DNA of 63,047 bases, counting the filler, from Babesia bigemina (taxonomy: Eukaryota): assembly GCF_000981445.1 (NCBI RefSeq). It is 6 parts of 6 records of this genome, joined end to end, with 100 filler letters (N's around TTAATTAATTAA, not from the genome) between each part and the next. Parts side by side here need not be neighbours in the genome. Positions count along the whole stretch, not along the records: positions 1 to 17,434 come from NW_012237197.1; positions 17,535 to 19,886 come from NW_012237198.1; positions 19,987 to 24,132 come from NW_012237199.1; positions 24,233 to 33,582 come from NW_012237201.1; positions 33,683 to 59,559 come from NW_012237202.1; 1 more part is not named here. One strand, given 5' to 3'. The notes under the pieces are model-generated. The model ran no database searches. It had not been told where the DNA came from and saw only the letters and a list, made by a program, of their open reading frames with translations. Position numbers and translations under genes: made by a program. How positions within the stretch are numbered: position 1 is the stretch's first letter; each line of letters starts with the position of its first letter. Below are positions 4,638-58,451 of this stretch, in pieces.

Positions 4638-4661
4638 AGCGGTATTATGGCGAGGTAATTC

Positions 4662-5161
4662 GAGCGATGTGTAGTGGATAAAGGAGCGATGTAGAGTGGA
4701 TAAAGGGGCGATGTAGAGTGGATAAAGGGGCGATGTAGAGTGGATAAAGGGGCGATGTAGAGTGGGTAAAGGGGCGATGTAGAGTGGGTAAGGGAGCGAT
4801 GTAGAGTGGATTAGGGAGCGATGTGGAGTGGGTTAAGGGGCGATGTAGAGTGGATAAAGGGGCGATGTAGAGTGGGTAAAGGGGCGATGTAGAGTGGGTT
4901 AAGGGGCGATGTAGAGTGGGTTAAGGAGCGATGTAGAGTGGGTTAAGGGGCGATGTAGAGTGGGTTAAGGGGCGATGTAGAGTGGATAAAGGGGCGATGT
5001 AGAGTGGGTAAAGGGGCGATGAGGAGTGGTTAAGGGGCGATGTAGAGTGGGTTAGGGAGCGATGTAGAGTGGGTTAGGGAGCGATGTAGAGTGGGTAAAG
5101 GGGCGATGTAGAGTGAGTTAGGGAGCGATGTAGAGTGGATAGAGGAGCGATGTAGAGTGGA
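4662..5161 (-). repeat. 22-bp minisatellite array upstream of ves gene
   Basis: Tandem GGCGATGTAGAGTGGATAAAGG variants on + strand (CCACTCTACATCGCCCCTTTAT in gene orientation). Confidence 0.95.
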
Positions 5162-5179
5162 TGATAATCACTAACTTTG

Positions 5180-5609
5180 TCACCATGTCATCGCTGCCGT
5201 AACCATGTCACCGCTGCCTTGACCATGTCCTCGCTGCCGTAACCATGTCATCGCTGCCGTTACCATGTCATCTGCTTGGTAACCATGTCATCGCTGCTGT
5301 GACCATAACCATGTCATCGCTGCCGTCACATGTAATCGCTGCCGTAACCATGTCATCGCTGCCGTAACCATGTCATCGCTGCCGTGTCCATCTCATCGCT
5401 GCCGTGACCATGTCATCGCTGCCGTAACCATGTCATCGCTGCCGTGTCCATCTCATCGCTGCCGTAACCATGTCATCGCTGCCGTAACCATCTCATCGCT
5501 GCCGTGACCATGTCATCGCTGCCGTTACCATGTCATCGCTGCCGTGACCATGCCATCGCTGTCGTGACCATGTCATCGCTGTCGTGACCATGTCATCGCT
5601 GTCGTGACC
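5180..5609 (-). repeat. 20-bp minisatellite array
   Basis: Tandem ACCATGTCATCGCTGCCGTG/A. Confidence 0.95.
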
Positions 5610-5970
5610 ATCAACTTGGTCAGCACTTTGGTCAGCACTTTGGTCAACACCTTGGTCAACACGTTGGTCGTGGCATTGGTCACCACGTTGGTCACCACGT
5701 TGGTCAACACGTTGGTCAGCACGTTGGTCACCACGTTGGTCAGCACGTTGGTCAGCACTTTGGTCAGCACGTTGTTCATCACTTTGGTCAGCACATTGGT
5801 CAGCACTTTGGTCACCACTTTGGTCAACACTTTGGTCACCACTTTGGTCAGCACCTTGGTCAGGTGCTTGGTCACCACCTTGGTCATGGCATTGGTTATG
5901 ACATTGGTCAGCACTTTGGTCAGCACGTTGGTCAACACTTTGGTCACCACTTTGGTCAACACTTTAGTTA
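5610..5970 (-). repeat. 12-bp minisatellite array
   Basis: Tandem TTGGTCAGCACT / TTGGTCACCACG variants. Confidence 0.95.
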
Positions 5971-6087
5971 ACTACTACACAATCACACACAACGATTGAT
6001 GAGTGATGCAACAGATTAAAGCACAAATCATAAGTTAGGTGAGTAGGTGATGCTAGGTGAGTGTAGGTAGTAAACACGTGAGTACGA

Positions 6088-9000
6088 TTACGGTTGCAGG
6101 TAAAACACCCTGTTAAGCTTGTTGACACGTGCGGCGGCGAGGAGTGATTGAGCGGCTATCCTATGACTCGAGGGACTATGTAGATGCGATTTGATGTGGA
6201 GGAGGTCGAGGCGGATGACCATGATGTGGAGGAGGTAGAGGAAGGAGAGGAGCCAGAGTGCGAGGGTTAGTGTCATGAAGGGGAAACGGATTGTGTATAT
6301 GAATTTGTCAATAGAGTGGAACAGTTGCATCAATACGGATTCTCCGTCGAGAACTTTCTTTAATGCGTTGCACAAATCGTTACACGTCCTCTTGTAGTCC
6401 ACATCATCGGTTCCACTCAGCTTCTTGCGGTCCACTAAAGTGAATCCGTATGTGCACAAAACCGACGATGTAGATGGGCAGTTTATTATGGAATCACACA
6501 ACGAGTGATGCGTAGATCCTGGCGATTTCTCGTTTGCCTTACATTTCTTCGGACATTTAGCGACACGGCATTTAGGCGTGGCACCGCCACATTTAGAGTT
6601 GCATTCCTCATACATTTTTTGAAGCAAGATGTAGAAAGTCTCTGTCAGATACACCATCCACGAAACGTATTTATCAGCGTGCTTAAACGAGAATGTGGCA
6701 CTGATATCATTACTCAAGGGACTCAAGTATTTACCGCACGTGGCCGCTGTTTTAGAGCTACATACGAGGCTGATAAGGTCACCTGATGTATGCGTCTTTG
6801 ATTTCCCAGAGTGACTAGAGTTAAATACAGAAGCGACATTCAACTCGTCATATGGGCGTTGCAGATTGGCTTTGGTCACTGCTTCGTCAAAAGCCTCTTT
6901 CTTGTGCTTCTTACCACCGTCATTCCACGTTGTTATAAACAGGTGATAAAACGCAAACATGTCACCCAGAGTCTGCGGCGGTCTACCTAGTACGCATACT
7001 AGAGAGGAGCAGAGTACAGTGAGTGGTGAGGACGGAGTGCCACAGAACTCCTTCAGTACTTTGTACAGTCTCGAACCCTTGCTTGTATGCGACGCCGTGA
7101 TGCTGATGTCGGCAAATCCCATTGGCGTTTTGCAAGGCTTGCCGAAATGGTTTGGTGCTGAACATGACAGCTTGCAGTCAGCCTTGTTATACGGATGAGG
7201 AAGGAAACCGGGAAGACCATCCTCCAAAAAGAATTGTAACGGTGACTTAACACCGCACTTAGGGTGTTGCTTGCACGTTTGGTTAGCTGTTTGGTCAGCT
7301 ATTTGCTTGCAGTTTTGGTCAGCACACTGCTTCTCATTGCACTTCCAACTTGAGCCGCCAACACCTTGCCCATACCAACACTCCGCCCATCCGCTGTATT
7401 GCGTCGAATTACTGCACTGCTCGTACAGGAAGCGCAACTGATGGAACAGTCTGTACAACAGTTCCACCAATACATCTAGACACTTAGCTGCGCTGGACGG
7501 ATATGCCAACTTGCCCGCGTTGGTGTAGAAATCGCAGGCGTAAATACCGTCATTATGCCCGTAGCCGAGGATGGATAGCAAAACGTCTTCTGCGTAGGTG
7601 GTGACTTCGGTGAGTTTGTCGGCCAGCGACGCGGCTGTGATGTCCTTCGGGTAGGCTGGCAGGGTGTCTGCTTCCTCACCTTCGAAAGTCGGACCGTCAT
7701 CGTCGGCGGTGGCGTCGCCTATCTTTTCCTCCTTCTCGAAGAGGCCACTGAAACCGTCGTAGGATAATGCGTGATACACCGGGTTATACGGAAGCCCGTT
7801 GAGCCAAAGCAATATGTCGAACACGGAAGAGGGATGCCGAGGTCTAGGATGAACAACGAGGTGACCGACGTGATTGTAGGCGTCCAGGTAATAGAACAGT
7901 CTCGACAGTAGACCTTCGTATTTTCTGTAATGCGCCAGGTATTCTTTGTAGGTTCCCAAGTTTTCTGGGTTCTCGTTGAAAGATTGGTAACGAGCGAATC
8001 CTCTGCTCATTCTGAGGGCGACTTCCTTACCGGTTTGATCCTTCAGCTGATCGATGTCATACCCCTCCTCCTGCAAATACTTTTTCAATTCATCCGCCTT
8101 TCGGGCACTTTTTGCGTTGCCGGTAACTTTGTAATCCGTCCACTCCGTAGCGCCCTTGTAGAACAGATGGTGGAGACCGTGGAAGTATGCCGGCCCGATG
8201 GTCAAAAACGCTTTTGCGCAATTGTTTACAGCCTTCTCATCGTGCTCCCACCTAACATTTGCGCCATCATACCTCGAGATATACACCTTGCCCAGCGCGC
8301 CGACCAACTCCCGGCAGCCACCGGAGACACCTTGCAGCATGGCAGTGACCGGGTTGGGGAAGCCGTCCGTTGTCAAGTCGGCAACGGCGGCGGTGAGATC
8401 GTCGAGCTTGGTAGGGAGATCGCGGTCGTATTTGTTGGAGGTGTAAACATGGCTGATCAGTCCGCTAAGGGCGGCATAGAGTTTGGTGAGTTTAGAGGTA
8501 TACGGATCCTGGGACCTGGGGAGTGAGGGATGCTTCTTATGTTCCTCCTCGTCAAGCCGGTTGATCTCGCTGTCGATGTACGATTTAACTGGTGCGAAGA
8601 ATGTCTCTAGGCTACGGCACAGAGTTGGAATGTCGGAGTTACTAAGAAGCCTGTTCACGTTGTCGCCGGAGTCGTTGCCGTTGAACGCCTCCATGAACCC
8701 CTTCAGGCCGATGTGCTGGTCGTGTTCGATTTGCGTTGGTAATTCTGACAACTCCAGCTTTACTTTCTCCACAAACTGCTCCAGTAGCCATTTTATGGAG
8801 TCAACGTACCGTCTGCGGGCGTGGGTTGTCAGGGCTGTTTCGGCCACGTTCACTTGTGTCTTGAGGTAACGTTGCATAGCTTGAACGTAGTGCTTTTCAG
8901 TAACTTCGGCATCTTTAAGGAATTTTTCAACGGCTTTGATAGGGCCGGACTCTAGATCACTTCGCAAATGACCCAGCTCGCTATGAATCTTATTGATGCT

Positions 9001-10995
9001 GTTTGTGGCAAGCTCGGAATCCGCAAAGTACTTCGTTTTCAGTTCAAATAATTTTGCTTTCGCGCTATCGGGGTCCTCACTGGTAACGTTCCTGATATCT
9101 TTGCACAGACTTTTTATCTTGTTCATTACATCTTGAGCATGTGTTTGCAGCGCGACTTTCTCAACCTCTGCGTTGCCTTCCAGGGTGCCGTCCAATTTAT
9201 TAATTACGTCAAGATACTTCTCAACGATAACAGTAACCTCCTTCTGCAGTTTTGCTGCACCGGTAATTGCGGCAGCATTACAAAGAGTGCCGATATCTGG
9301 TTCTATGCCCGCGGCCTTCTCTTGCATCGATGATTTCAATGTAGTACCGGCTCTGCCTGCAAATGTATTCCAACCTGAATTGCTCATTGTCGTTATTGAA
9401 TTTAGATAGTTTAAGACAATCTCAAAACAATATCCAAGGTTGCCTGCTTCATTTGCTATTTGTGCCGTGGTAAACAACACTCCAAACGTTCCCAATTTAT
9501 TTTTCAAATTGTTCTCACCAAGCTTTTTTATCATGGCATCCAAACCAGGTGTTTTTTTTGATGTCACAACAAGCCCATTCTGCGCTGTCATACCCGCCAC
9601 TAACGCCTCCTTCAAATGTTCCAGGTAATTCCCAACGTTTTTTTTAATTTTTTCAATAAGTGGCTTAATCACCGTAGACACATCCCATTCACCACTTGTT
9701 TGGTTGAACACACTAAACTGATGTGGCACAATCATGTTTTCCTCCAGCTCTTTTAGCTTCTTCACCGCGCATTCTCCTTTCCCATCTCCCTCCGGTCCCT
9801 TAACCTTCGTAACTACTGCATTATATTGGTTTCTCAACTCCTCAAATTTTCCGTGTAGTATGCTTGTCGACGCTTCGATCTGCTGGGCCGCTTGCGTGAT
9901 TTGGTTAGGATATTTATATAAAGAGCCTTCGTCGATACACTCCAATATTTTATTCACCTGCGTCTCTGCTGTCGTGATGGCATCCTTCGCATTGTCGATC
10001 CATTGCCCCAAATGCTTGAGGCAAATTTGAAGTGAATTATTGATTTGTTTCAGTTTGGCCAATATCGGTCGGACTTCCTTAGTCAGGTAGTCCAGCAAGG
10101 CTCTAACCTGATCTTGTATGTTACACTCTACATTCACCTGTAAACTGCTGAGTGTTTGACTAATGTACTGTTTAGTTGTATCCAACTCACTCTGCTGTTT
10201 GGCACGCACCGTCTCCAGCCGCTCGCTCTCATACGCAACGGTCGCACGAACATTGTCAAGCTTATCACGCAACTTATCATTAAGCTCTACAATTGATTTT
10301 TTGAGTTCATTATCAGCTACAGTGGTATCTATGTCACTAGTGAACTGTTCAGCTCTTTGCTGAAATTCTTTCAGCTTCGCGTCAATTTGCTTCGTGGCAT
10401 CTTCAACTTGCTGGTCCTTGTAATTTATCTTCTGACGTGAATCATCATGCTCTCGTAGGATCTTGTCTGAAGCTTCTTTAAGAAGCGTTAATTCACCTGT
10501 AAAGCTATTAAGTTTTTCACTCACCTTTTTATTAGACTGCTCCACTGCCTTATTATACCTCCCCACCCCTTCGACCACCTCCGCAATCGCAACACTAAAA
10601 CCTTTTTTACCGGCGTGTTTTTTCTCGTTAAGTATCTTAATTGCATCGGTAATTGTCTCTTTATGCTGCCCTAAATGCTCTTTGATGTTACTGAGAACAC
10701 CACTCAAAAACGCCACCACCCCGTCACACAGCCTATCCAGGTCAGAGTACACAATGCCAGAGCCGTCGTAGCCTTTTGATTCAGAGTTGAAGCCGAGGAA
10801 AGTCTCGAGGCCGTCACAAAGGTTAGTATGGATGTTAGTAAGGTTATTATTTAAGGTATTTTAAAGCTTATCAATTTCTGCAAATTTCATGTCAAGCTCC
10901 CTAGGCGGCACATGGTCAGGGCAGTGGCAAGAGGTGGAAGAAGGGAAGGGAAGGGTGACAAGGCACAAGTTATTATAATGGTTAATGGAGGTCAT
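6088..10995 (-). pseudogene. ves1: ves1/VESA1-like gene (class I tail); single in-frame TAA at 10861-10863 in leader; 1554-aa body ORF 6088-10752 intact
   Basis: MTSINH leader ATG at 10995, SDLDRLCD motif, FLEDGLPGFLPH Cys-rich domain, TM helix and tail DLLHIKSHLHSPSSHRIAAQSLLAAARVNKLNRVFYLQP. Confidence 0.75.
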
Positions 10996-11020
10996 AGCGG
11001 TATTATGGCGAGGTAATTCG

Positions 11021-11341
11021 AGCGATGTAGAGTGGGTTAAGGGGCGATGTAGAGTGGGTAAAGGGGCGATGTAGAGTGGATAAAGGGGCGATGGAGAGTG
11101 GGTTAGGGAGCGATGTGGAGTGGGTAAAGGGGCGATGAAGGGTGGGTAAAGGGGCGATGTAGAGTAGATAAGGGGCGATGTAGAGTGGGTTAAGGGGCGA
11201 TGTAGAGTGGGTTAAGGGGCGATGCAGAGTGGATAAAGGGGCGATGTAGAGTGGGTTAGGCAGCGATGTAGAGTGGATAAAGGGGCGATGTAGAGTGGGT
11301 TAAGGGCGATGTAGAGTGGGTTAAGGGCGATGTGGAGTGGA
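11021..11341 (-). repeat. 22-bp minisatellite array
   Basis: Tandem GCGATGTAGAGTGGGTTAAGGG variants. Confidence 0.95.
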
Positions 11342-11369
11342 TGATAATCACTACTTATGTCAGATGCTT

Positions 11370-11638
11370 GGTCACCATGTCATCGCTGCCGTAACCGAGA
11401 CATCGCTGCCGAAACCACTGTCATCGCTGCCGTGACCAAGACATCGCTGCCGTGACCATGTCATCGCTGCCGTGACCATGTCACCGCTGCCGTAACCATG
11501 TCATCGCTGCCGTGACCATGTCATCGCTGCCGTTACCATGTCATCGCTGCCGTTACCATGTCATCGCTGCCGTGACCATGTCATCGCTGCCGTGACCATG
11601 TCATCGCTGCCGTAACCATGTCATCGCTGCCGTGACCA
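11370..11638 (-). repeat. 20-bp minisatellite array
   Basis: Tandem ACCATGTCATCGCTGCCGTG. Confidence 0.95.
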
Positions 11639-12418
11639 CTAACTTGGTCACCACGTTGGTCACCACGTTGGTCAGCACCTTGGTTGACACGTTGGTCAAC
11701 ACGTTGGTCAACACATCGGTCAACACGTTGGTCAGCACGTTGGTCAGCACTTTGGTCAGCACATTGGTCAGCACATTGGTCACCACGTTGGTCACCACGT
11801 TGGTCATGGCATTGGTCACCACTTTGGTCATGGCATTGGTCACCACTTAGGTCAACACTTTGGTCAGCACATTGGTCAGCACATTGGTCACCACGTTGGT
11901 CACCACGTTAGTCGTGGCATTGGTCATGGCATTGGTCAGCACGTTGGTCACCACGTTAGTCGTGGCATTGGTCATGGCATTGGTCAGCACTCTGGTCAGC
12001 ACATTGGTCAGCGTTTAGGTCAACACTTTGGTCAGCACCTTGGTCAGCACATTGGTCAACACGTTGGTCAACACATTGGTCAACACTTTGGTCAGCGCCT
12101 TGGTCATGGCATTGGTCAGCACATTGGTCAGCACTTTGGTCATGGCATTGGTCATGGCATTGGTCAGCACTTAGGTCAGGTGCTTGGTCACCACTTTGGT
12201 CAACACTTTAGTCACCACTCTGGTCATGGCATTGGTCAGCACTTTGGTCAGTTGTTTGGTCAGCACATTGGTCATGGCATTGGTCAGCACTTTGGTCATG
12301 GCATTGTTCAGCACTTTGGTCAGCACCTTGGTCAGCACTTTGGTCAACACTTTGGTCAACACGTTGGTCAGCACCTTGATCACCACGTTGGTCAGCACAT
12401 TGGTCACCACTTTAGTTA
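11639..12418 (-). repeat. 12-bp minisatellite array
   Basis: Tandem TTGGTCAGCACA / TTGGTCATGGCA variants. Confidence 0.95.
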
Positions 12419-12537
12419 ACTATTACACAGTCACATACAACGATTAATGAGTGATTCAAAACATTAGATGACAATTCGTAGGTTAGGTGAGTAGGTGATA
12501 TGCTAGGTGAGTGTAGATAGTGAACACGTGAGTACGA

Positions 12538-16642
<4,105 letters not shown>

Positions 16643-16987
16643 TTAAGCCAGCCCCGACACCCGCCAACACCCGCTGACGCGCCCTGACGGGCTTGTCTGC
16701 TCCCGGCATCCGCTTACAGACAAGCTGTGACCGTCTCCGGGAGCTGCATGTGTCAGAGGTTTTCACCGTCATCACCGAAACGCGCGAGACGAAAGGGCCT
16801 CGTGATACGCCTATTTTTATAGGTTAATGTCATGATAATAATGGTTTCTTAGACGTCAGGTGGCACTTTTCGGGGAAATGTGCGCGGAACCCCTATTTGT
16901 TTATTTTTCTAAATACATTCAAATATGTATCCGCTCATGAGACAATAACCCTGATAAATGCTTCAATAATATTGAAAAAGGAAGAGT

Positions 16988-17965: not shown

Positions 17966-17995
17966 ACCCTCGAATCACCTTGCCATATTACCGCT

Positions 17996-19876: not shown

Positions 19877-19886
19877 CGCGATTAAA

Positions 19887-19986: not shown

Positions 19987-20027
19987 GCTAATGAAGGTCA
20001 TAGCGGTATAAGGCGAGGTAATTCAAG

Positions 20028-20850: not shown

Positions 20851-20969
20851 TTACTGTTACACAATCACATACAACGATTAATGAGTGATACAACAGATTA
20901 AAGCACAATTCATAAGTTAGGTGAGTAGGTGATGCTAGGTGAGTGTAGACAGTAAACACGTGAGTACGC

Positions 20970-24510: not shown

Positions 24511-24511
24511 A

Positions 24512-41158: not shown

Positions 41159-41169
41159 TGACCAAGTTA

Positions 41170-41600: not shown

Positions 41601-41617
41601 CCAGAGTGGTGAGTATT

Positions 41618-43668: not shown

Positions 43669-43695
43669 CTCGAATTACCTCGCCTTAATACCGCT

Positions 43696-46600
43696 ATGAC
43701 CTCTATAAACCATTACAATAACTTGTGCCCTGTCACCCTTCATTTCCCTGCTTCCACCTCTTGCCACTGCCCTGACCATGTGCCGCCTAGGGAGCTTGGC
43801 GAGAAATTTCATGAAAATAAAAAGTGCGAAATTACCTCAAATAACAACCCTACTAACATCCTTAATAATCTCTGCTCTGGCCTTGAGACCTTTCTCGGCT
43901 TCAACTCTGCTAACAAAGGCTACAATGGCACTGGGATAGTGTACTCCGACCTTGATAGGCTGTGTGACGGGGTGATGGGATTTTTGAGTGGTGTTCTCAG
44001 TAACATCTACAAGCATTTAGGGCAGCATAAAAACACTTTAAATGATGCAATTACGTCACTTAACACCAATAAACACCTTGGTAAAAAAGGTTTTAATGCT
44101 GCGATTGTGAAGGTGGTCGCAGGGGTGCGGGGGTATAATGATAAGGTGAAGAGGTCAAATGATGATATCAAGAGACCGATTGAAACGCTATTAACACATG
44201 TCAATGAAGAAGTTATGAAGAAGGTAAGTGCAATTTTAAATGATAATGCTGCTTCAGGTCAGAATACATACAGTGACAAGGACATCGAGAAAGTCAAGCG
44301 AGCCGTGACGGAGGCTACCAATCTGGTCAAAACATGCATTGACTCGTCTAACGCCTATTTATTTGGCATAGACAGCCAACGAAAAAACATAAATGACTTA
44401 AATCACGAATTAAAACTTAATGTACATAATGTTACAAAACATGTAAAACATGAGAGTGGACGCCTTCACGACTTAGCGTGGAAGGCGAAGGGTGACTTGG
44501 AAGCAATGGATAAAGTCATTAATGATAAGCTCAAAACGGTGAAAGAGAACGTTAATTGCAGAATAAAAATAGAGGTGAATGAACTTGTCGAAAATCTGAA
44601 GTTAAAAGTCTCGGCAATCTTGATACAACTTAAGCAAATTAGTGAGAATCTGGCAGACAGTCTGAGCAATCTAGAATTGTGGATGGAAAAAACCAAACAT
44701 ATGATTGACAATGCAGTTGCAAAGCTTGATTTAATCATCAATAAAACTGTTGGAAGAGAAAACCGAGAATTCATAACATCGATGACGGAGCAGATTGGAA
44801 GAGATGTTAAACAGCTTCACAGTGCGGGACAAGATGCGAAAAACAGAGTAGCTGCGTTGGTTAGGGATGCACATCTGAAAGTACGTGAGTTACAGACGGC
44901 ACTGCAGTTTGATTTGGGCACAATTAAAGATGAGATCAGAAGTAAGGTCAGCAAGGTTGTCTCAGCGATTGTGTCGCTTGGGAGACAGTTTTACGACGGT
45001 AGCATCAAAACGCCAACAAATATTGAGGAGATTATAACACATATTCAAGGAGAGGTGAAAAGCATTAAAGGGCATGTTGGTGAACCAAGAGAACCAGGAA
45101 ACCTTAAACCAACAGATGGCAGCGTATACCAAAATTGGGAAGAGTTCAAAAAGAATTTAAAAGATCTGGTCAATCAGATTAAAGGAGAAAGCGTAGGTAG
45201 GGGTGTAAATGGTAAGGGTATAGAACATATTAAAACAGGAGTCATCAAGTATGCTGCGTCGTATAAAGAGTCTAAAGGAGAGGACACTGGATTCGCAAAA
45301 ATTTCGAAGGATTGGGTCACGGAAGTAGTTGGAACAAAAGCAGTCAAAAAATGGCTTGACAAGTATATTGAAGATAATATTTTTAACACTTATTTTAATG
45401 GAGAGCTGAGTGCTAGGGGACGTGATAGCTTAGGTACATACGTTATTAAAAAAGTGACGGAGCACATACAGGAAGTGGCTGGTAAAATCGAGCCGGATAA
45501 AACATTTGCTGAGAATAACGGTCTAGAAGACTACTTACCATACGTGAAAAATTATCTCAAGAAGTTTGCCACGGACGTAGTGAATAAGCGGGATGAGATA
45601 ATACGGGCTTTCGAAGGTCAAGTATTACATGATGTTCAGGTCGTATCGTTTGTCAAGTCGGGTAGGCATAATAACACTAATCTCAAACTTGCCGTCCAGG
45701 CCACCCTAGGTGTGCTGTCCGTTCTGGCCGAACGAGTTGCAAAGCAACTGGAGGCATTCATTGACGAAAGGCAAATAAACCTCGGTGGCAACGTGACGCA
45801 CATTTCGAGCAAGGTCGATGAAATCGAAGAACATGTCGACATCCGTGCACGAAAGTACACGAATGCTCTAGGCTATGCAATCGACAAAGCGCTGCAAAAT
45901 GTTCGTGGAGCAATTAATACGCTGTCCGGTCAGGTTGACCAGGCGCTGGAAGGCGGATCTGTGCCCGGCCGCGAGACAAGCGATTCAGCCGCCGCATACG
46001 TGGACAAAAAAATCAAACAGGTTACAGACACGCTTGACGAGCAGCTGCCGTGGGACCCTGCAGTCGTTGCATATAACACGCGTGGTGTCAAGCTTGAGAA
46101 ACTAACCAGATACGAGACAGGTGCGGCAGACAGCAGGAAAGGAAAGAAAAAAGAACTCGAAGATGCCATAACAATAATAGATACTGATGTGAAGCGTATT
46201 CTACAGCCATTAGACACGTTTAATGAAAATGCATTAGATCAGTTCAAAGTTGTGACTAGCAAACTTAGTGCTTTCATGGAAGATTATTCTAGCGCAGCCA
46301 ATGAGATCAAAACGATTCTGCAGACAATCAGAACTGAGCGAATCGACAATCGTTTACTCAATTATATTAAGAATGGAATTGCAACGCTGCGAACCGTTAG
46401 GTTGAATGCGGTCATCAACAAGGCAGAGCAGTTTCCCGATGAAGCGGATGTGTTCCAAAATAACTGCGTAGATGTCCTAGAAAAACACGTTGAAAATGAA
46501 GTTAACATTGCACATACTGCAATTCTATATACAGCGCGAAGGCATTACATCACCACGATCCAGTTGTTACTTCAAAGCTTCGCATCCAAAGTGCACAGCG

Positions 46601-49302: not shown

Positions 49303-49447
49303 TCATCGTCACATTTGTAATTCACGTAACTACTCACTTAGCGAATCACCTACTCACCTAAATAACAAACGTAGTCTAATGTCTCGAATTACTCTAGCGG
49401 CAACCTGTGAACTAAATAGCACCTAGATTAGGTTATGACTGATAGAC

Positions 49448-50528
49448 AAAGCTAAGTGCTTAGCTAGCATCCAAGCTAAGTGCTAAGCAAGCACACAAGT
49501 TACGTGTTAACCTAGCACCCAGGCAAAGTGCTAAGCTAGCATTCAGGCAAAGTGCTAAGCTAGCACCCAGGCAAAGTGCTAAGCTAGCAACCAGGCAAAG
49601 TGGTAAGGTAGCAACCAAGTTAAGTGCTAAGCAAGCACACAAGCAACGTGTTGACCTACCATCCAGGCAACGTGCTGACCTAGCAAACAGGCGAAATGGT
49701 AAGCTAGCAACCAGGCGAGGTGCTAACCTAGCAACCAGGCAACGTGTTAAGCTAGCAGCCAGGCAAAGTGCTAACCTAGCATCTAGGCAAAGTGCAAAGC
49801 TAGCACCCAGGCAAAGTGCTAAGCTAGCACCCAGGCAAAGTGCTAAGCTAGCACACAGGCAAAGTGGTAAGCTAGCACTCAGGCAAAGTGCTAAGCAAGC
49901 ATCCACGCAACGTGTTAAGCTGGCAACCAGGCAAAGTGTTGACCTAGCAACCAGGCAAAGTGCTAAGCTAGCAACCAGGCAAAGTGCTAAGCTAGCAACC
50001 AGGCAAAGTGCTAACCTAGCACCCAGGCAAAGTGCTAACCTAGCACCCAGGCTAAGTGCTAACCTAGCAGCCAGGCGAGGTGCTAACCTAGCAACCAGGC
50101 AACGTGTTAAGCTAGCAGCCAGGCAAAGTGCTAACCTAGCATCTAGGCAAAGTGCAAAGCTAGCACCCAGGCAAAGTGCTAAGCTAGCACCCAGGCAAAG
50201 TGCTAAGCTAGCACCCAGGCTAAGTGCTAACCTAGCAGCCAGGCAAAGTGCTAAGCTAGCACCCAGGCTAAGTGTTGACCTAGCACCCAGGCTAAGTGCT
50301 AAGCTAGCATCCAGGCAAAGTGCTAAGCTGGCAACCAGGCAACGTGTTGACCAATGCCATGACCAAAGTGCTAAGCTAGCACTCAGGCAAAGTGGTGACC
50401 TAGCACCCAGGCAAAGTGGTAAGCGAGCACTCGAGCTAAGTGCTAAGCAAGCACCCAGGCAAAGTGGTAAGCTAGCACACAGGCAACGTGTTGAGGTGGC
50501 ACCCAGGCAAAGTGTTAACCTAGCACCT
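49448..50528 (+). repeat. 21-bp minisatellite array
   Basis: CCAGGCAAAGTGCTAAGCTAGCA-type units. Confidence 0.95.
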
Positions 50529-50539
50529 CACCAAGTTAG

Positions 50540-51698
50540 TGGTCACGGCAGCGATGACATGGTCACGGCAGCGATGACATGGTTAAGGCAGCGATGACAT
50601 GGTCACGGCAGCGATGACATGGTTAAGGCAGCGATGACATGGACACGGCAGCGATGTCTTGGTCACGGCAGCGATGACATGGTTACGGCAGCGATGTCTT
50701 GGTCACGGCAGCGATGTCTTGGTCACGGCAGCGATGTCTTGGTCACGGCAGCGATGACATGGCTACGGCAGCGATGACATGGTTACGGCAGCGATGACTG
50801 GTCACGGCAGCGGTGAAATGGTTACGGCAGCGATGACATGGTCACGGCAGCGATGACATGGTCACGGCAGCGATGACATGGTTACGGCAGCGATGACATG
50901 GTTACGGCAGCGATGACATGGTTACGGCAGCGATGAGATGGTTACGGCAGCGATGACATGGTTACGGCAGCGATGACATGGTTACGGCAGCGATGACATG
51001 GTTACGGCAGCGATGAGATGGTTACGGCAGCGATGACATGGTTACGGCAGCGATGACATGGTTACGGCAGCGATGACATGGTCACGGCAGCGATGACATG
51101 CTTACGGCAGCGATGACATGGTCACGGCAGCGATGTCTTGGTTACGGCAGCGATGACATGGTTACGGCAGCGATGACATGCTTACGGCAGCGATGACATG
51201 CTTACGGCAGCGGTGACATGGTCACGGCAGCGATGACATGGACACGGCAGCGATGACATGCTTACGGCAGCGATAACATGGTCACGGCAGCGATGACATG
51301 GTCACAGCAGCGATGTCTAGGTTACGGCAGCGATGACATGGCTACGGCAGCGATGACATGGTTACGGCAGCGATGACTGGTCACGGCAGCGGTGAAATGG
51401 TTACGGCAGCGATGACATGGTCACAGCAGCGATGTCTAGGTTACGGCAGCGATGACATGGCTACGGCAGCGATGACATGGTTACGGCAGCGATGACTGGT
51501 CACGGCAGCGGTGAAATGGTTACGGCAGCGATGACATGGTCACGGCAGCGATGACATGGTCACGGCAGCGATGACATGGTCACGGCAGCGATGACATGGT
51601 CACGGCAGCGATGACTGGTCACGGCAGCGATGACATGGTCACGGCAGCGATGAGATGGTCACGGCAGCGATGATATGGTCACGGCAGCGATGACAGTG
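50540..51698 (+). repeat. 20-bp minisatellite array (~1.15 kb)
   Basis: GGTYACGGCAGCGATGACAT units. Confidence 0.96.
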
Positions 51699-51730
51699 GT
51701 GACCAAGTTGATGACCTAAGTGATGATTAT

Positions 51731-51876
51731 CACCCACTCTACATCACCCTTAACCCACTCTACATCGCCCCTTTACCCACTCCACATCGCTCCCTTTATC
51801 CACTCTACATCGCTCCCTAATCCACTCTACATCGCCCCTAATCCACTCTACATCGCCCCTTAATCCACTCTACATC
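51731..51876 (+). repeat. Short 22-bp array
   Basis: About 6-7 CCACTCTACATCGC units. Confidence 0.92.
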
Positions 51877-51904
51877 CCTTGAATCACCTCGCCATAATAC
51901 CGCT

Positions 51905-54900
51905 ATGACCTCTATAAACCATCACAATAACTTGTACCTTGTCACCCTTCCCTTCCCTTCTTCCAAGTCCCAGGCTCTTAAGTCTGTTGAAGAGAAGATT
52001 GTCCAGCTTGGTGAATTGGCTGGTAAGCTTGGAGGATTTGTTGGTGAGAGTGAGAGTGTTAAGAAAGCCGTTGTGAAGGCTATTATCGCCCAAATTAACA
52101 GTAATGAAGAGCTTAAAAATCTTTACTCTTCTCATGTTACTACCCTTTCTGAGTCTGTCAACTCTGTTGGCAAGGCTGATGACACCGATGAAATTAGTGA
52201 GCTTAAGCAGAAAGTTGCTGATCAAATTAAGCTTCTTAAAGAACGTGAATTGCAACTTCAAAATCAATTAAAAGATCCTTCTTCTTCCCCCTCTCCCTCT
52301 GCTGACTCAGCCGAATTGCACTCCAAGTTGGAGGCTTTGAGGAAAGTGGAGAAGCTTTGTGAATTTTATGAGAAACTTAAAACTATGCCAAATGAGCCAA
52401 AAAAGCTCTTAGAGAATCTTTGTGACGGCCTTCAGACTTTCCTCGGCTTCGACTCTGCTTCCAAAGGCTACGATGGCAGTGGTATTGTGTACTCTGACCT
52501 AGATAGGCTGTGTGACGGGGTGATGGGATTTTTGAGTGGTGTGCTTGGTGCGGTGAAAGATGATGATGCGGTTAAAACGTATGATAAAGATACCACAAAA
52601 AACATTAATACAGTTATTAAGACTTTGAATGATAATATTGGCTCCGGGCGTGCTGGGCTTGTGGAGTCTGTCGCGGAGGTGAAGGGGTGGTTGGAGGGGT
52701 ATGAATTAGAATACAGCAAAAAAGCAAGCAACGTCACAGAGTTTTTAGGTGAGTTGAAAAGCAACATAGCAGGTAAATATACATCTCAAATTCGTGCAGG
52801 TGAGAAATTGACTAGACAGCTGGAGGAGTGGAGGCGCATCGTGGAGAACATCCAGAGTGACATAAAAACTATTGAAACTAATTATGTAATTTATTTAGAC
52901 GATGAATTGAGATGTAAAATACGTAGTGAAATAATATTAGTTAAAAAATCCGTAGAGGTTTTACGTGATTCAGCTTGCAACATTAGTGTCAACGAACAGG
53001 CCAAGCACGTAGATACGCATTTAGATGAGCAAAAACGAAATCTGGAAAAAGCAGTCACAGATGGGAGTGAAAACGTTAAACGCACTTTACAAATAAATTT
53101 TACAAAAATACTCGACGCAATGTATGACTTACGTGAACAAAGAAAACACCACTTTGAAAAGTGCTATGAGAGGTTAAGGGAGGCGAATAAACACTTGAAA
53201 AGTCGTTTAGACAAATATAGCGGCACTACTCGAGATGAGATATTTAGGTTATTTGATGAGATAATAAAAGAAGTAAAGAAGATTTACGGTGATATGAACT
53301 ACAAAAAAGGGGAACTGGAAATGTTAGTCGAGGGGGCTGAGAAGACGCTGTCTGAATTATCTAAGAATTTTGAGAAAGATGTGAAAGCGGGTGTGAAGCA
53401 GGATTTGACGGCATTGAATGGTAACGTAAATGCACTAAAAAATGGTATGAGATCAATTTCCAACGGTCATGAGATTGTAGGAAAGGCGTTGACTCAGCTT
53501 AGTGCGTCTAAGCAACAGCTGCTGAGAACGACAGATCCAATTACGCAGAATTCAGAAGCACTGGTAGGTAAGTATAATGAAGACTTGAAGAAAAAATTCT
53601 ACACCTTTGCGGAGGCACTAAAGGCGGCGAAATTGGATACTTTTCAAACAGAATTGCAGGCTGAATCCCGAAAACTTCGTAATTATTTTGAAAATCTGAT
53701 GAAGATAAGTACTATACAAAAAGTGTCAACATCGGGCAGAAGTGAGGTCAAGGATCTTGTAGAGGAACTAAATGGTGCCATCGGTACCATTAATCAGAGG
53801 TATGACTCTCTTTCGACAGCATCATTAGTAGTTACTACAAATGCATTCGCCTCTGCTGTTAACACTGCAGCAGGGGCCATCAATAGACTCGGCACAATAA
53901 TAAAACAGGAGTTCACTCAGGCGAAGCAAACGATCGATGACACCAAAGACAACAAAGAGTTGTTAACAGCTGTCGACGAACTCAAAAATCTTCAGTTGCT
54001 GCAAAACTCTATATACGGCGAGAGAGGAACAGCCGATGCACCTAAAACAGGATCGCTCGCCAAACTGATCGAGGAGTTGAGTACTGCAATCGGCACTACT
54101 TCAGGTGACGATGGCGGCAAACTTAACAAAGCGATTGGCGCATTTGAGACGTCTGCTAAACAACAAATCATTGATGCTGCGACCAGCGCAATAGAAAAGG
54201 CTGCAGCTCAAGTGACTGCAGAAATGCAGAAATTTAGGGAAGAAGACGGTGGCGTATTTAGTAAGACTGAGTTGGGCAAAAAAGTTGCAGTTTTAAAAAC
54301 ACATATCAAAACACTCGAGGGATTCATAAAGGAGAAAACACAAGGTACGCTTCACTTAAAGCTGAATGAAATTCAAAAAGATCTTGATATGCTCGATAAG
54401 CTAAAAATAGAAGACACAAACGAAGAACATGATGGTGGAATTAACAAAATGAAAAAAGCAGCAGATAAGAAAATGCAAGAGTTGTATAATGAGATATTTG
54501 ATAAAGTAAATGCTGTTTTTAACACGCTAAATGACGCCGATAGAAATCTAACACATACCATCGATATTGTCAGTGAAGGAGTTCACAGTGCGTATGCGGC
54601 GTCAACTAAATCTGTAGAAAATATAAAGGAATACTTGCTTAGTGTCACAAGTCAAGCTTTCGACACCGTAACGTCTGCCGTCCGAATATTGTTCTCCGAA
54701 CAACACGTCGCCGACCTTGGAGGTCTTAAGACGTTGGTGGATGGTCAATTAAGAAAAATGGAACAAATAATTCAGAAAGATAGAAGAACAGCAATTAAAG
54801 GCCTGTTGCAAAATCTAAATGGCCGCACGTATATTGTTAAAGCAGGTAAATATCCGAGGTTTGAGATGCCTTCCGGTACGTCTATGCTGGATGCAATCAT

Positions 54901-57571
54901 ACAGGTCGCGCAGTCCTCGACGTCGACGCTAAATGGCGAAGCATATCTTCAGCAATTCCGACAATTATCGGAGAAATTCCACGCCTACTATAATAACGTT
55001 GACATTTATGTCGACAACCAAGTTAAAGATCCAACCTCCCCCCCGCCCACCGACCAAACCACCGACCCAGCCACCCAGCTAACCAAAATCAAAACTGACT
55101 TCGACAATTTACTTGGACATCTTAAAAGTAATGGTGATCGTAATAGAATATATAATTATGATAAAAAGTTCGTTGACCTACATTCTTCCCTCTCCACCTC
55201 CCTCCACCTCCTATCCCCCTCCGCCTTCGCCAACCCCCGGCACCCGGAGCTGCTCGATGCGGTCAGACAGGGGCTGCAGGGGTTTGTCGAGCAGATGGAG
55301 CGGGTGTATGTGAACGGGTATGATGGAGGGGAAGGGATTACATGGATGAAAAGTGATAATAAAACGTTAACCGACGATGCTGAAAAATGTGCCAAAATTT
55401 TTCTCACTTGTCTGCCGGGTCTGAACAAGCATCTCAACCACCTCCGGATGCATTGTGACAGGGATCCCAAAACAGGTCCTTGGAATAAATTACAGATCAA
55501 TAGAGCGAACACTAATAACATGATAGGCCTTTGGTTTGACTGCCGTGGTTACAGGGTTTCTTCGGAACAATCGAAGCAGGATGGAGAGTTGCGGAACAAA
55601 TCGGAGTGCAACGGTAATCATATTCACGGTTTCCTCGTTAACAAAAATGACAAAAATTATCTTTTCGAACACGATGAAGCCGATAAAGATAGTCGTCCAC
55701 TCAGAAAGCTTCTCGGCTACCTCAACACCTATTACCAGGTCACCCACCTGCAGCACATCTCGTCACCTAAGGCCCCGCGCAACGTGTATCAGATGCTCCA
55801 GTGGCTGAGTGGGCTGCAGTATAATGGTGTGTATGGTAAAATTCGAAACTATTTTGGCGATTTGTTTACTGAGCTGCAAAGTGATTACAAGTTAGCGAAA
55901 GCAGAGTTAGCCGTTACCAGGCCGCACGACCTGAGAGGTGTAGTAACAGACAATATAGTGCGATCAAGTTGCCTATCTACTGCACTTAGCAATGTTTGCA
56001 AATATGCCGAAGTTGTATTAATCGCCATTCTCGGCCACGGTCATGGCCATCCGCATAGCCGATACGCCGTTGACTTCAACACCAACGCGGATAATCTAGG
56101 CTATCCTAGTAGCGCCGCTTCATGCTTTGATATGCTGGTAGATATATCGTATCGAGTGTATCACCAACTGTGTTTCCTGCACAGACAGTGTGAAAATCAC
56201 GATGACAGCGGCGGCTGGCGATCATGTCATTACGGCAAGGGCGTCGATGGGTCATCATGGAACTGCAATACCACCAAATGTCCTAACCAAATATGTGACC
56301 AAAGAGCTAACCAAATTGCCCAGCAAAAGGCTGACCAAAAAGCTGACCAAACGTGTGACCAACACCCTAAGTGCGGTTTGAAATCGCCACTTCAGTCATT
56401 TTTGGAAGATGGTCTCCCCGGCTTCTTACCGCATCAGTTTACTAGTCCCGGTTGTAAGTTAACGTGCACTGTGGCCAATCATGGAGGCATCCCGTGCAAA
56501 ACTCCAATGGGCTTTACTGATCTAGCCACCATGGCGTCACGTTCGCAGACAGGCGAGGAACTCAAGAAGGCGCTGGAAGAATTCAGCGCCGAAATCCATG
56601 ATCCGCTTACCATTTTCTGCACCTTCCTAACATGTGTTCTCCGCAGGTCTCCGCAAACGCTGGGAGATATGTTTGCGTTCTTCTACGGTTATCTTCATCA
56701 TTTTGCCGAAAGTGAGCACAAGAAGAAAGCCTTTGATGCCGCCGTAAAGGATGCCATCTTTGGTCAGGAATACAATGATCTCAACCCATCAAAGATGTTT
56801 GGCACTAGTCGTCATGGTCAAGGTACGGAGCATTCCAGAGGTGACGTGTTCAGCATCGTCGAATGTTTTGCTGGCGACGAAGAAATATGTGGGTTCTACC
56901 TCCAGTCACTGAGCTTTAATATTTATAATATATTTTCGGAATGCCATAAGAACCACTATCTGTCATGGATTGTCTATCTCACAGAGACATTCTACAATCT
57001 TCTCTGCAAATTGCGTGACGACTGCCGCAATAATTGCAACAAGCCAGGAACCAGGTGTCAGGGTAAGATATGCGCTAAGAACTGTCAAGTACAATCTAGA
57101 TATAAAATCAAAAAGGAAGTGTGGGCGTGGACTATTAGTCACGAAAAGGATTGCCAATCCATCGCTCAGTGTCCGCTAACTCTACCCACATTAAATAGAT
57201 ATGGATTTGCATTTTGGAGTGCATATAGTCTTAGCAACAACAAGCATCAGAAAAGAACATGTGAAGACTTTTGCAAAGCATTGAATAATGTGCTGAGCGA
57301 CAAAGAATCGAAACACGCCCCTCTTGCCGAATTGGTATTCAGGACCATCCCCGAATTCCTTTTCAAAATCCGCGAACCCTTCATCTGGCTCAACGTCGCG
57401 CTCTGGCTCCTCTCCCTCCTCTATCTCCTCCACATCATGGTCATCCGCCTAGACCTCCTCCACATCAAATCGCATTTGCACTCACCATCATCACATCGCA
57501 TCGCTGCTCAGTCACTACTTGCTGCTGCTCGCGTTAACAAGCTTAACAGGGTGTTTTATCTGCAACCATAA
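51905..57571 (+). CDS. ves1: ves1/VESA1-like protein, 1888 aa (class I tail)
   Basis: MTSINH leader, LGELAGKLGGFVGES, SDLDRLCD, FLEDGLPGFLPH, TM, ARVNKLNRVFYLQP. Confidence 0.88.
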   Translation: MTSINHHNNLYLVTLPFPSSKSQALKSVEEKIVQLGELAGKLGGFVGESESVKKAVVKAIIAQINSNEELKNLYSSHVTTLSESVNSVGKADDTDEISELKQKVADQIKLLKERELQLQNQLKDPSSSPSPSADSAELHSKLEALRKVEKLCEFYEKLKTMPNEPKKLLENLCDGLQTFLGFDSASKGYDGSGIVYSDLDRLCDGVMGFLSGVLGAVKDDDAVKTYDKDTTKNINTVIKTLNDNIGSGRAGLVESVAEVKGWLEGYELEYSKKASNVTEFLGELKSNIAGKYTSQIRAGEKLTRQLEEWRRIVENIQSDIKTIETNYVIYLDDELRCKIRSEIILVKKSVEVLRDSACNISVNEQAKHVDTHLDEQKRNLEKAVTDGSENVKRTLQINFTKILDAMYDLREQRKHHFEKCYERLREANKHLKSRLDKYSGTTRDEIFRLFDEIIKEVKKIYGDMNYKKGELEMLVEGAEKTLSELSKNFEKDVKAGVKQDLTALNGNVNALKNGMRSISNGHEIVGKALTQLSASKQQLLRTTDPITQNSEALVGKYNEDLKKKFYTFAEALKAAKLDTFQTELQAESRKLRNYFENLMKISTIQKVSTSGRSEVKDLVEELNGAIGTINQRYDSLSTASLVVTTNAFASAVNTAAGAINRLGTIIKQEFTQAKQTIDDTKDNKELLTAVDELKNLQLLQNSIYGERGTADAPKTGSLAKLIEELSTAIGTTSGDDGGKLNKAIGAFETSAKQQIIDAATSAIEKAAAQVTAEMQKFREEDGGVFSKTELGKKVAVLKTHIKTLEGFIKEKTQGTLHLKLNEIQKDLDMLDKLKIEDTNEEHDGGINKMKKAADKKMQELYNEIFDKVNAVFNTLNDADRNLTHTIDIVSEGVHSAYAASTKSVENIKEYLLSVTSQAFDTVTSAVRILFSEQHVADLGGLKTLVDGQLRKMEQIIQKDRRTAIKGLLQNLNGRTYIVKAGKYPRFEMPSGTSMLDAIIQVAQSSTSTLNGEAYLQQFRQLSEKFHAYYNNVDIYVDNQVKDPTSPPPTDQTTDPATQLTKIKTDFDNLLGHLKSNGDRNRIYNYDKKFVDLHSSLSTSLHLLSPSAFANPRHPELLDAVRQGLQGFVEQMERVYVNGYDGGEGITWMKSDNKTLTDDAEKCAKIFLTCLPGLNKHLNHLRMHCDRDPKTGPWNKLQINRANTNNMIGLWFDCRGYRVSSEQSKQDGELRNKSECNGNHIHGFLVNKNDKNYLFEHDEADKDSRPLRKLLGYLNTYYQVTHLQHISSPKAPRNVYQMLQWLSGLQYNGVYGKIRNYFGDLFTELQSDYKLAKAELAVTRPHDLRGVVTDNIVRSSCLSTALSNVCKYAEVVLIAILGHGHGHPHSRYAVDFNTNADNLGYPSSAASCFDMLVDISYRVYHQLCFLHRQCENHDDSGGWRSCHYGKGVDGSSWNCNTTKCPNQICDQRANQIAQQKADQKADQTCDQHPKCGLKSPLQSFLEDGLPGFLPHQFTSPGCKLTCTVANHGGIPCKTPMGFTDLATMASRSQTGEELKKALEEFSAEIHDPLTIFCTFLTCVLRRSPQTLGDMFAFFYGYLHHFAESEHKKKAFDAAVKDAIFGQEYNDLNPSKMFGTSRHGQGTEHSRGDVFSIVECFAGDEEICGFYLQSLSFNIYNIFSECHKNHYLSWIVYLTETFYNLLCKLRDDCRNNCNKPGTRCQGKICAKNCQVQSRYKIKKEVWAWTISHEKDCQSIAQCPLTLPTLNRYGFAFWSAYSLSNNKHQKRTCEDFCKALNNVLSDKESKHAPLAELVFRTIPEFLFKIREPFIWLNVALWLLSLLYLLHIMVIRLDLLHIKSHLHSPSSHRIAAQSLLAAARVNKLNRVFYLQP

Positions 57572-57693
57572 TCGTACTCACGTGTTTACTAGCTACACTC
57601 ACCTAGCATATCACCTACTCACCTAACTTATGAATTGTGCTTTAATCTGTTGTATCACACATTAACCGTTGTATGTGATTGTGTAATAGTTAA

Positions 57694-58422
57694 CTAAAGT
57701 GCTGACCAAGCACCTGACCAAAGTGGTGACCAAAGTGGTGACCTAGTGAGTGACCAACGTGATGACCAACGTGTTGACCAAGTTGATGGACACGGCAGCG
57801 ATGACATGGTTACGGCAGCGATGACATGGTGACGGCAGCGATGACATGAACACGGCAGCGAAGTCTTGGTTACGGCAGCGATGACATGGTCACGGCAGCG
57901 ATGACATGGTTACAAGTGGTGATTATTATCCACTCTACATCGCCCCTTTATCCACTCCACATCGCTCCTTTATCCACTCTACATCGCCCCTAACCCGCTC
58001 CACATCGCTCCTTAACCCACTCTACATCGCCCCTTAATCCACTCTACATCGCTCCTCTATCCACTCTACATCGCTCCCTAACCCACTCTACATCGCTCCC
58101 TAACCCACTCTACATCGCTCCTTAACCCACTCTACATCGCCCCTTTATCCACTCTACATCGCTCCCTAATCCACTCTACATCGCCCCTTTATCCACTCTA
58201 CATCGCTCCCTAATCCACTCTACATCGCTCCCTAACCCACTCCACATCGCTCCCTAACCCACTCTACATCGCCCCTCTATCCACTCTACATCGCTCCTTA
58301 TCCACTCCACATCGCCCCTTTACCCACTCTACATCGCTTCTTTACCCACTCCACATCGCTCCCTAACCCACTCTACATCGCCCCTTTATCCACCCTACAT
58401 CGCCCCTTTATCCACTCCACAT
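57694..58422 (+). repeat. Composite array: 12-mer (57694-57782), 20-mer (57787-57913), 22-mer (57928-58422)
   Basis: Same units and order as the other intergenic regions. Confidence 0.93.
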
Positions 58423-58451
58423 TCCTTGAATTACTTCGCCATATTAACGCT

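What the first reader, a model, noticed from the sequence alone, without database searches (positions are those of the whole stretch)
4638..58451. Invariant intergenic grammar: 3' flank > 12/21-mer > 20-mer > 22-mer > gene
Seen: every ves-to-ves interval (4638-6087, 10996-12537, 20002-20969, 40728-43695, 49303-51904, 57572-58451) has the same ordered, gene-oriented series of minisatellites with conserved junctions (e.g. GTG(A/G)TGA(T/G)TAT..(A)TCCACTC). Only copy number varies; the 22-mer array ranges from ~150 bp to ~2 kb. All genes are head-to-tail, unlike the head-to-head ves1 alpha/beta pairs of B. bovis. Inference: the unit is a cassette whose arrays act as recombination or silencing modules, analogous to the 70-bp repeats upstream of trypanosome VSG genes.
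Basis: partly seen in the sequence, partly recalled or inferred. Interest (0 to 1): 0.8.

Follow-up and report, generated by a model that had tools for sequence, protein, structure and literature searches.

The report
Headless antigen-gene archive with ordered repeats
In the cattle blood parasite Babesia bigemina, surface-antigen genes that lack their normal start sit head-to-tail behind a fixed series of short DNA repeats, and they likely form a chromosome-end reserve from which the parasite would copy pieces into intact genes to escape immunity.

Summary
The ordered spacer is real. In 6 of 6 named intervals the order is 3' flank > first array > 20-mer > 22-mer > ~90-bp leader > gene, with conserved junctions. 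Corrections: the first array is a 12- or 24-mer, set by the upstream gene's tail type (4 and 4); 2 of 8 flanks leave the series; the window is six unordered draft contigs with vector. All 9 visible 5' ends start in a 22-mer array, joined to coding sequence at different residues. In the published reference, like genes form inward-pointing arrays at six assembled chromosome ends, while head-bearing ves1b lie mostly inside. The 12/24-mer matches an in-gene repeat; the 22-mer is G4-prone and partly complementary to the 20-mer. Visible exchange tracts lie mostly inside coding sequence (77 of 87), so a true 70-bp-repeat role is unproven. Best reading: a subtelomeric donor archive whose spacers give shared homology for cassette copying. 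Not found in the papers searched.

The parts
1..500 (.). Cloning vector end; not parasite DNA
   Evidence: lac/M13 sites and polylinker seen (recognised from recall)
490..4663 (-). g1: ves1b, headless, leader frame broken; 3' part cut by the clone end
4664..5160 (-). 22-mer array, interval 1
5182..5611 (-). 20-mer array, interval 1
5616..5965 (-). 12-mer array, interval 1
5966..6087 (-). Type A 3' flank of g2
6088..11021 (-). g2: ves1b, headless, tail type A, stop between leader and conserved block
11022..12537 (-). Interval 2: flank A (12411-12537), 12-mer (11644-12410), 20-mer (11374-11638), 22-mer (11022-11340)
12538..16338 (-). g3: ves1b 3' part, tail type A; 5' part cut by the clone end
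16339..17434 (.). Cloning vector (pUC-type, start of blaTEM-116)
17574..19886 (+). 22-mer array (17574-17965), leader and 5' part of g4 (leader ATG in frame), cut by a gap
19987..20969 (-). Interval 3: flank A (20848-20969), 12-mer (20690-20847), 20-mer (20501-20685), 22-mer (20029-20481), start of a leader, then a gap
20970..24132 (-). g5: ves1b 3' part, tail type A
24240..30514 (+). 22-mer array (24240-24510) joined without leader to g6, which starts at about residue 54 of a full-length ves1b; tail type B
30515..33582 (+). Exception: flank B, 24-mer (30670-31227), unique stretch, 75-mer array (31736-32246), small Cys-rich membrane gene and tail fragments (32215-33175), 12-mer (33300-33558), first 20-mer unit, gap
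33683..40727 (+). 22-mer array (33683-35004), leader (frame broken) and g7, tail type B
40728..43667 (+). Interval 4: flank B, 24-mer (40887-41156), 20/25-mer (41165-41594), 22-mer (41616-43667)
43668..49302 (+). Leader and g8, leader ATG in frame, tail type B
49303..51876 (+). Interval 5: flank B, 24-mer (49454-50527), 20-mer (50540-51700), 22-mer (51734-51876)
51877..57571 (+). Leader joined at about residue 126 of a full-length ves1b; g9, tail type A; in-frame 12-nt repeat at 56296-56362 that matches the 12-mer
57572..58422 (+). Interval 6: flank A, 12-mer (57696-57782), 20-mer (57786-57913), 22-mer (57926-58422)
58423..59559 (+). Leader and 5' part of g10; near-identical to g6 from the DLDRLCD block on (mosaic)
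59660..61420 (-). g11 3' part (60416-61420, tail B), flank B, 24-mer (59946-60271) and the same unique stretch as at 31228
61421..63047 (-). 3' half of a B. bigemina LINE-like retrotransposon abutting g11

Best explanation
These are 5'-truncated ves1b genes, each capped by the same ordered repeat-and-leader module, that likely form a chromosome-end donor archive: the shared spacer would supply the homology for copying and swapping whole cassettes between arrays, while antigen variation likely reaches intact, expressed ves1b genes by segmental conversion inside coding sequence. Shown: order, junctions, loss of the head, variable join points, mosaic genes, G-rich 22-mer. Taken from a published table: inward-pointing arrays at assembled chromosome ends. 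Inferred: that this window is subtelomeric, that the spacer drives cassette copying, that the G4-prone 22-mer and the 20/22 fold-back would stall forks and start recombination, and that the module grew from pieces of ves1b itself.
For: Head absent: 12 head peptides find nothing better than E 0.04 in the window, while the downstream block is found 8 of 8 times at E<1e-19. 9 of 9 visible 5' ends lie in a 22-mer array, 8 of 9 through the leader. Join points differ: g6 at residue 54, g9 at residue 126 of P0017, five genes at a short form. The leader is broken in 3 of 7 readable copies and shows no third-position bias (changes 3/4/5 and 3/4/0 by codon position, against 2/3/8 in the conserved block), yet gene bodies stay open for 1054-2002 codons in 8 of 8. 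Of 90 B. bigemina hits 30 start with the leader and 15 with the head; of 30 B. ovata hits 0 start with the leader. In Jackson 2014 Table S1, 29 of 30 large genes seen near six assembled chromosome ends point inward, neighbours about 1.2-3 kb apart; the exception bears a head; 10 of 10 end genes matched to my hits lack the head. Six near-identical tracts link head-bearing to headless proteins. Outside the conserved blocks the genes share little, so the spacer is their longest common sequence. 22-mer: 19.7% of windows pass G4Hunter 1.2 against 1.3% of non-array DNA; 23 of 29 G3 motifs lie in it. The 22-mer-to-leader join is present in runs of three studies.
Against: No breakpoint was mapped into an array; 77 of 87 tracts are internal and only one pair shares a tract reaching the leader, though 90% clustering of the database hides whole-cassette duplicates. 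22-mer arrays share at most 27-179 exact bases, so they are not kept identical. The leader ATG is in frame and open in 4 of 7 copies, 14 reference proteins keep a fixed 85-residue spacing, and peptides map to many end genes, with the highest value among the ves1b-like rows I saw at a leader-type gene, so some cassettes may be expressed as they stand. 45 of 90 hits start at neither head nor leader, and gene models can miss exons. The query was itself leader-type, which biases the counts. No genome was held, so the repeats could not be mapped genome-wide.
Confidence: 0.55

Rival explanations
1. True 70-bp or CRJE-like system: a telomeric expression site carries the same 22-mer and leader, and whole cassettes are swapped into it at that module, translated from the leader ATG or spliced to an upstream head exon.
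For: Leader ATG open in 4 of 7; 30 of 90 reference proteins start there; 22-mer arrays hold 2 AG in about 5.5 kb of sense strand and five genes have a CTGAC...TAG acceptor-like site; the first gene of chromosome III is leader-type and has the highest abundance among the ves1b-like rows seen, on 3 quantified peptides; the dominant ves1c of B. caballi lies near a telomere.
Against: Join points and first-AG phases differ (phase 2 in five genes, 0 in three); two genes have stops downstream of that AG; no codon bias in the leader; AG poverty follows from 5% G; the 5 table rows labelled BbigVes1b that are among my hits all bear the head.
Confidence: 0.2
2. The arrays are mainly silencing or chromatin modules that keep the archive off, like subtelomeric repeats of Plasmodium.
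For: Fixed position upstream of every gene; a telomere-like word CCCTAACCC occurs 40 of 41 times in the 22-mer; likely subtelomeric setting.
Against: Genes without a head would need little silencing; the Babesia telomere unit is TTTAGGG and its complement CCCTAAA occurs 0 times in the arrays; tenfold length range.
Confidence: 0.1
3. Neutral by-product: one ancestral gene-plus-spacer unit was duplicated in tandem and its low-complexity pieces expanded by slippage; the order is inherited and does nothing.
For: 12/24-mer match an in-gene repeat (24 of 35 best hits at one place, 5 of 6 units p<=0.007); 20-mer and 22-mer look like a fold-back pair; arrays drift independently.
Against: Short junctions and the leader stay 85-95% alike between genes whose bodies hardly align; the module is joined at several different coding positions and occurs doubled in some reference proteins, so it has moved as a unit.
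Confidence: 0.13
4. Assembly artefact of a draft sequence.
For: Six contigs, vector, low-quality ends.
Against: Six intervals lie inside contigs; units and the 22-mer-to-leader join occur in independent runs; the leader starts 30 reference proteins.
Confidence: 0.02

Closest known systems
BbigVes1b of Babesia bigemina (Jackson et al. 2014, PMC4066756)
   Same: Same protein family: hits include BBBOND_0303890, 0300080, 0312140, 0305380 and 0305430, labelled BbigVes1b in Table S1; same DLDRLCD block and membrane tail; mosaicism known.
   Different: The passages and supplements I read do not describe loss of the head, the leader or the repeat spacer; most end-array genes are labelled hypothetical in that table.
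Pneumocystis msg-I archive with CRJE and UCS (PMC10622565)
   Same: Subtelomeric genes lacking the family's N-terminal part, each beginning with a conserved junction that has a purine/pyrimidine-skewed tract; mosaic alleles.
   Different: CRJE is 33 bp, coding and at a fixed position; here the join moves and is often out of frame, long arrays precede it, many intact genes exist, and no single expression site is known.
Trypanosoma brucei 70-bp repeats and silent VSG arrays (PMC4858185)
   Same: Oriented repeats of variable length upstream of archived antigen genes, conserved 3' end.
   Different: One AT-rich unit there, three or four GC-balanced units in fixed order here; presence at an expression site and use as conversion boundary are not shown here.
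B. bovis ves1alpha/beta LAT with segmental gene conversion (PMC7485966, PMC9047050)
   Same: Short internal conversion tracts; predicted G4 motifs enriched near ves loci.
   Different: Head-to-head intact pairs, mostly interstitial; no ordered minisatellite spacer in the passages read.

Membership tests
BbigVes1b | Homology to genes labelled BbigVes1b | tested here: met
   five labelled genes are among the 120 listed hits
BbigVes1b | Conserved C-terminal membrane domain and tail | tested here: met
   8 of 8 genes with a visible 3' end
BbigVes1b (intact gene) | N-terminal head (KKLTDCPENL...IDWL, seen) | tested here: not met
   absent from the window; 9 of 9 5' ends start in a 22-mer array
B. 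bovis-type LAT | Head-to-head ves1 pair sharing a bidirectional promoter | tested here: not met
   all ves genes within a contig lie on one strand
Trypanosome 70-bp repeat system | Oriented repeats upstream of archived genes | tested here: met
Trypanosome 70-bp repeat system | Same repeat at the expression site | not testable with these tools
   no genome held; expression site unknown
Trypanosome 70-bp repeat system | 5' conversion boundary lies in the repeats | tested here: inconclusive
   77 of 87 tracts internal, one pair reaches the leader; whole duplicates are hidden by clustering
Trypanosome 70-bp repeat system | AT-rich ~70-bp unit | tested here: not met
   units of 12-24 bp, 52-57% G+C
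Pneumocystis msg-I / CRJE system | Conserved junction element at the start of each archived gene | tested here: met
   leader in 8 of 9
Pneumocystis msg-I / CRJE system | Junction at a fixed, in-frame position | tested here: not met
   variable residues, frame broken in 3 of 7
Pneumocystis msg-I / CRJE system | Single expression site holding the head and the same junction | not testable with these tools
Subtelomeric silencing repeat | Heterochromatin marks and repression of neighbours | not testable with these tools
   no chromatin data

The most novel reading that the evidence does not exclude
B. bigemina has left the B. bovis paired-locus model and evolved a trypanosome- or Pneumocystis-like system: a telomeric expression site into which headless ves1b cassettes are swapped at a G4-forming 22-mer plus leader, the whole spacer having been built from amplified fragments of the antigen gene itself.
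Probability: 0.15. Interest if true: 0.85.

Novelty: new variant of a known kind. Interest (0 to 1): 0.6.

Why it matters
It splits B. bigemina ves1b into intact, mostly interior genes and a large headless reserve at chromosome ends, an arrangement known from trypanosomes and Pneumocystis but not found for Babesia in the papers searched. It names concrete sequences (22-mer, leader, DLDRLCD block, two flank types) at which switching boundaries can be looked for, explains why these regions assemble badly (37-44% of ves1b loci had no assembly in other strains), and warns that many annotated ves1b starts are probably not real. The multi-copy 22-mer may also be a sensitive species marker; specificity was tested only against JGI metagenomes (0 matches).

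Tried and rejected
Genome-wide mapping: no genome held. Pfam: no ves domain and no family above its cut-off in 14 ORFs. Metagenome scan for two 22-mer cores: 0 matches. RNA: no RNA holder listed; all laid runs are contigs. In one search the 22-mer depth is several hundred times that of the gene 3' end in X3 and X4 (and high with no 3'-end cover in X5) against about 13 times in X7; contigs cannot show RNA level, so this is a lead only. No listed contig bridges the 12|20 or 20|22 junction (list cut), and the 12-mer was covered in 1 of 4 runs; order in other isolates is therefore untested except 22-mer > leader. Arrays as coding repeats: rejected for the 20-mer and 22-mer (periods not multiples of three). 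20-mer derived from the head codons (W-L-x-Q-x-H-G-S-D likeness): p 0.007-0.02 in 2 of 16 tests chosen after seeing the hit; weak. Leader derived from N-terminal coding sequence: p<=0.02 for 4 of 7 leaders against g6, none against g9, 1 of 7 (p 0.03) against g7; modest. 20-mer and 22-mer as inverted relatives: alignment p 0.005-0.16 over 4 unit pairs, duplex p 0.007-0.026 over 6 pairs, fold z -2.4; 24-mer shows no such pairing, so a hairpin across the first junction is not general. 22-mer as decayed Babesia telomere repeat: TTTAGGG form absent. Protein atlas did not answer. B. ovata supplement held none of six locus-tag stems. Earlier scan findings: none relevant. Paper searches for a prior description found none; subscription papers, older probe papers and figures (for example Jackson Fig. 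3, S1, S4) could not be seen.

Full report
What the window is. It is six draft contigs joined by N-TTAATTAATTAA-N spacers at 17435-17534, 19887-19986, 24133-24232, 33583-33682 and 59560-59659, with cloning vector at the start and at about 16339-17434 (by recall). The large ORFs hit only B. bigemina and B. ovata proteins among the 120 listed of 162 hits. Five hits are labelled BbigVes1b in Table S1 of Jackson et al. 2014, so the genes are ves1b. Pfam gave nothing above cut-off for 14 ORFs. No whole genome was held.

The observation. In 6 of 6 named intervals the gene-oriented order is 3' flank, first array, 20-mer, 22-mer, leader, gene. Short junctions are conserved (7 of 7, 6 of 6 and 8 of 8 for the three motifs). 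The first array is a 12-mer after genes ending in FYLQP (4 of 4) and a 24-mer after genes ending in SYLQP (4 of 4; Fisher p 0.029), each with its own 3' flank. Two of eight flanks leave the series after the 24-mer and enter a shared unique stretch (91% alike over 286 bp). One 12-mer > 20-mer series follows tails of a small Cys-rich membrane family whose 10 hits are all B. bigemina. The arrays of the series make up 19.7% of the window.

The genes have no head. Full-length ves1b proteins begin with a conserved head about 140-240 residues before the DLDRLCD block. Twelve head peptides find nothing better than E 0.04 in the window, while the block is found in 8 of 8 genes that show it. All 9 visible 5' ends lie in a 22-mer array; 8 pass through a leader of about 90 bp and g6 joins the array directly. 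The join falls at residue 54 (g6) or 126 (g9) of the full-length P0017, near residue 88 of P0116 (g7), and at a short form matching residue 81 of P0023 in the other five. The leader holds an ATG that is open to the gene in 4 of 7 readable copies and broken in 3, with no third-position bias in five aligned copies (small numbers). Gene bodies stay open for 1054-2002 codons in 8 of 8. Among 90 B. bigemina hits, 30 start with the leader, 15 with the head and 45 with neither; among 30 B. ovata hits, 8 have the head and none the leader. The query was leader-type, so these shares are biased. Some reference proteins carry the leader twice, and one run shows the same doubled context.

Where such genes lie. 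Table S1 of Jackson 2014 gives coordinates. With chromosome lengths large genes in the rows I saw lie near six assembled chromosome ends; 29 point away from the end, neighbours about 1.2-3 kb apart, like the 0.9-3.0 kb intervals here. Only some of the 30 could be matched to my hits: the 10 end genes matched by name or mass lack the head, and the one gene pointing the other way, BBBOND_0300080, has it. Ten of 12 head-bearing hits with locus tags lie inside chromosome III by tag number. That assembled ends are near telomeres, and that this window comes from such an end, is inferred. If so, the G-rich strand of the 22-mer would run toward the chromosome end.

What the repeats are. The 12- and 24-mer match, in sense only, an in-frame four-codon repeat 1.2-1.3 kb before the ves1b stop: 24 of 35 best whole-gene hits fall there against 0 of 21 for the 20-mer, 22-mer and leader, and 5 of 6 common units pass a shuffled-unit control at p<=0.007. 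The 20-mer is partly complementary to the 22-mer (duplex z -3.2 to -9.0 in 6 of 6 intervals; p 0.007-0.026 with unit shuffling), which suggests a fold-back origin; support by alignment is weaker. The 22-mer is strongly skewed and G4-prone on the antisense strand (19.7% against 1.3% of windows; 23 of 29 G3 motifs). Allred 2022 reports predicted G4 enrichment near B. bovis ves loci and proposes it focuses conversion. The 22-mer arrays share only 27-179 exact bases with each other, so they turn over separately. The 20-mer, its 25-mer variant and the 22-mer occur in 4 of 4 runs laid, and the 22-mer-to-leader join in three studies.

Where recombination shows. g10 and g6 differ completely upstream, converge across the conserved block at 25188-25291, and then differ at 2 sites in about 740 bp: a breakpoint in coding sequence, not in an array. 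Among 101 proteins, 87 tracts of at least 80 residues at 96% identity or more were found; 77 are internal, 7 reach a C-end and 3 an N-end, of which one includes the leader. Six tracts join head-bearing to headless proteins. This fits the short, microhomology-bounded segmental conversion measured in B. bovis. The test cannot see whole-cassette copies, which the database merges at 90% identity.

Mechanism. The most likely reading (0.55) is a donor archive. Steps shown: headless genes, one cap module joined at different coding positions, mosaic bodies, exchange with intact genes. Steps inferred: the spacer, as the longest sequence that divergent cassettes share, would align them for duplication and exchange between chromosome ends; G4 or fold-back structure would raise breakage there; useful variation would then pass to intact genes through internal conversion. 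The main result against it is proteomic: peptides map to many end genes, and leader-type BBBOND_0300010 has 1,519,361 normalised units against 988,927 for BBBOND_0303890, on 3 quantified peptides from another strain. Mosaic intact genes would give the same peptides, so this does not decide. The expression-site swap (0.2), silencing (0.1), neutral drift (0.13) and artefact (0.02) remain.

Comparison and novelty. It works like the Pneumocystis msg-I archive and the silent VSG arrays but is a member of neither: the junction is not fixed in frame, the units are not 70-bp AT-rich, and presence at an expression site is untested. Searches found no description of the spacer or of headless ves1b arrays. 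What I saw of each paper: PMC4066756 passages, most of section 22, supplementary legends and table rows, no figures; PMC5660447, PMC10463595, PMC6630957, PMC9047050, PMC7485966, PMC9141347, PMC10622565 and PMC4858185 passages only; PMC7999288 a term search with no hits. Tandem ves1 at a chromosome end is already noted in the Fig. S4 legend. Verdict: new variant of a known kind, interest 0.6.

Noticed in passing
window 61421-63047 (-): 3' half of a LINE-like retrotransposon abutting the 3' third of a ves1b gene; 100% identical to a 10-member B. bigemina cluster, with relatives in B. ovata, B. caballi and Theileria equi; two related gene models mix RT and ves sequence. The family is already reported. 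Whether it favours ves arrays is open.
   Followed up: partly
window 31736-32246 (+): 75-bp array whose unit looks like a short exon plus a GT...AG intron of 34-51 nt, repeated about seven times upstream of a Cys-rich membrane ORF.
   Followed up: partly
window 32215-33175 (+): Small Cys-rich single-membrane gene family; 10 hits, all unnamed B. bigemina proteins, some with locus tags next to ves1b genes; two further tail fragments follow in 205-bp units.
   Followed up: partly
window 31228-31513 and 59660-59945: Shared unique stretch after the 24-mer in two places (91% alike); an 11-base word in it recurs in the LINE 3' end at 61489. It may be the promoter of the small gene.
   Followed up: no
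all eight 3' flanks, e.g. 57610-57628: Invariant TCACCTACTCACCTAA; the opposite strand reads as repeated splice-donor-like AGGTGAGT words. A protein-binding site or an antisense transcript are both possible.
   Followed up: no
window 41165-41594: 25-mer variant of the 20-mer (five-base insertion) homogenised locally and present in 4 of 4 runs laid.
   Followed up: yes
window 57926-57960, runs X3, X4, X5: 22-mer depth far above the gene end and the 20-mer in three runs guessed to be RNA, not in X7; a lead for a repeat-derived RNA, not evidence.
   Followed up: no
Jackson 2014 Table S1: Most chromosome-end ves1b-like genes are labelled hypothetical or undefined, so published ves1b counts and expression ranks may leave them out.
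   Followed up: partly
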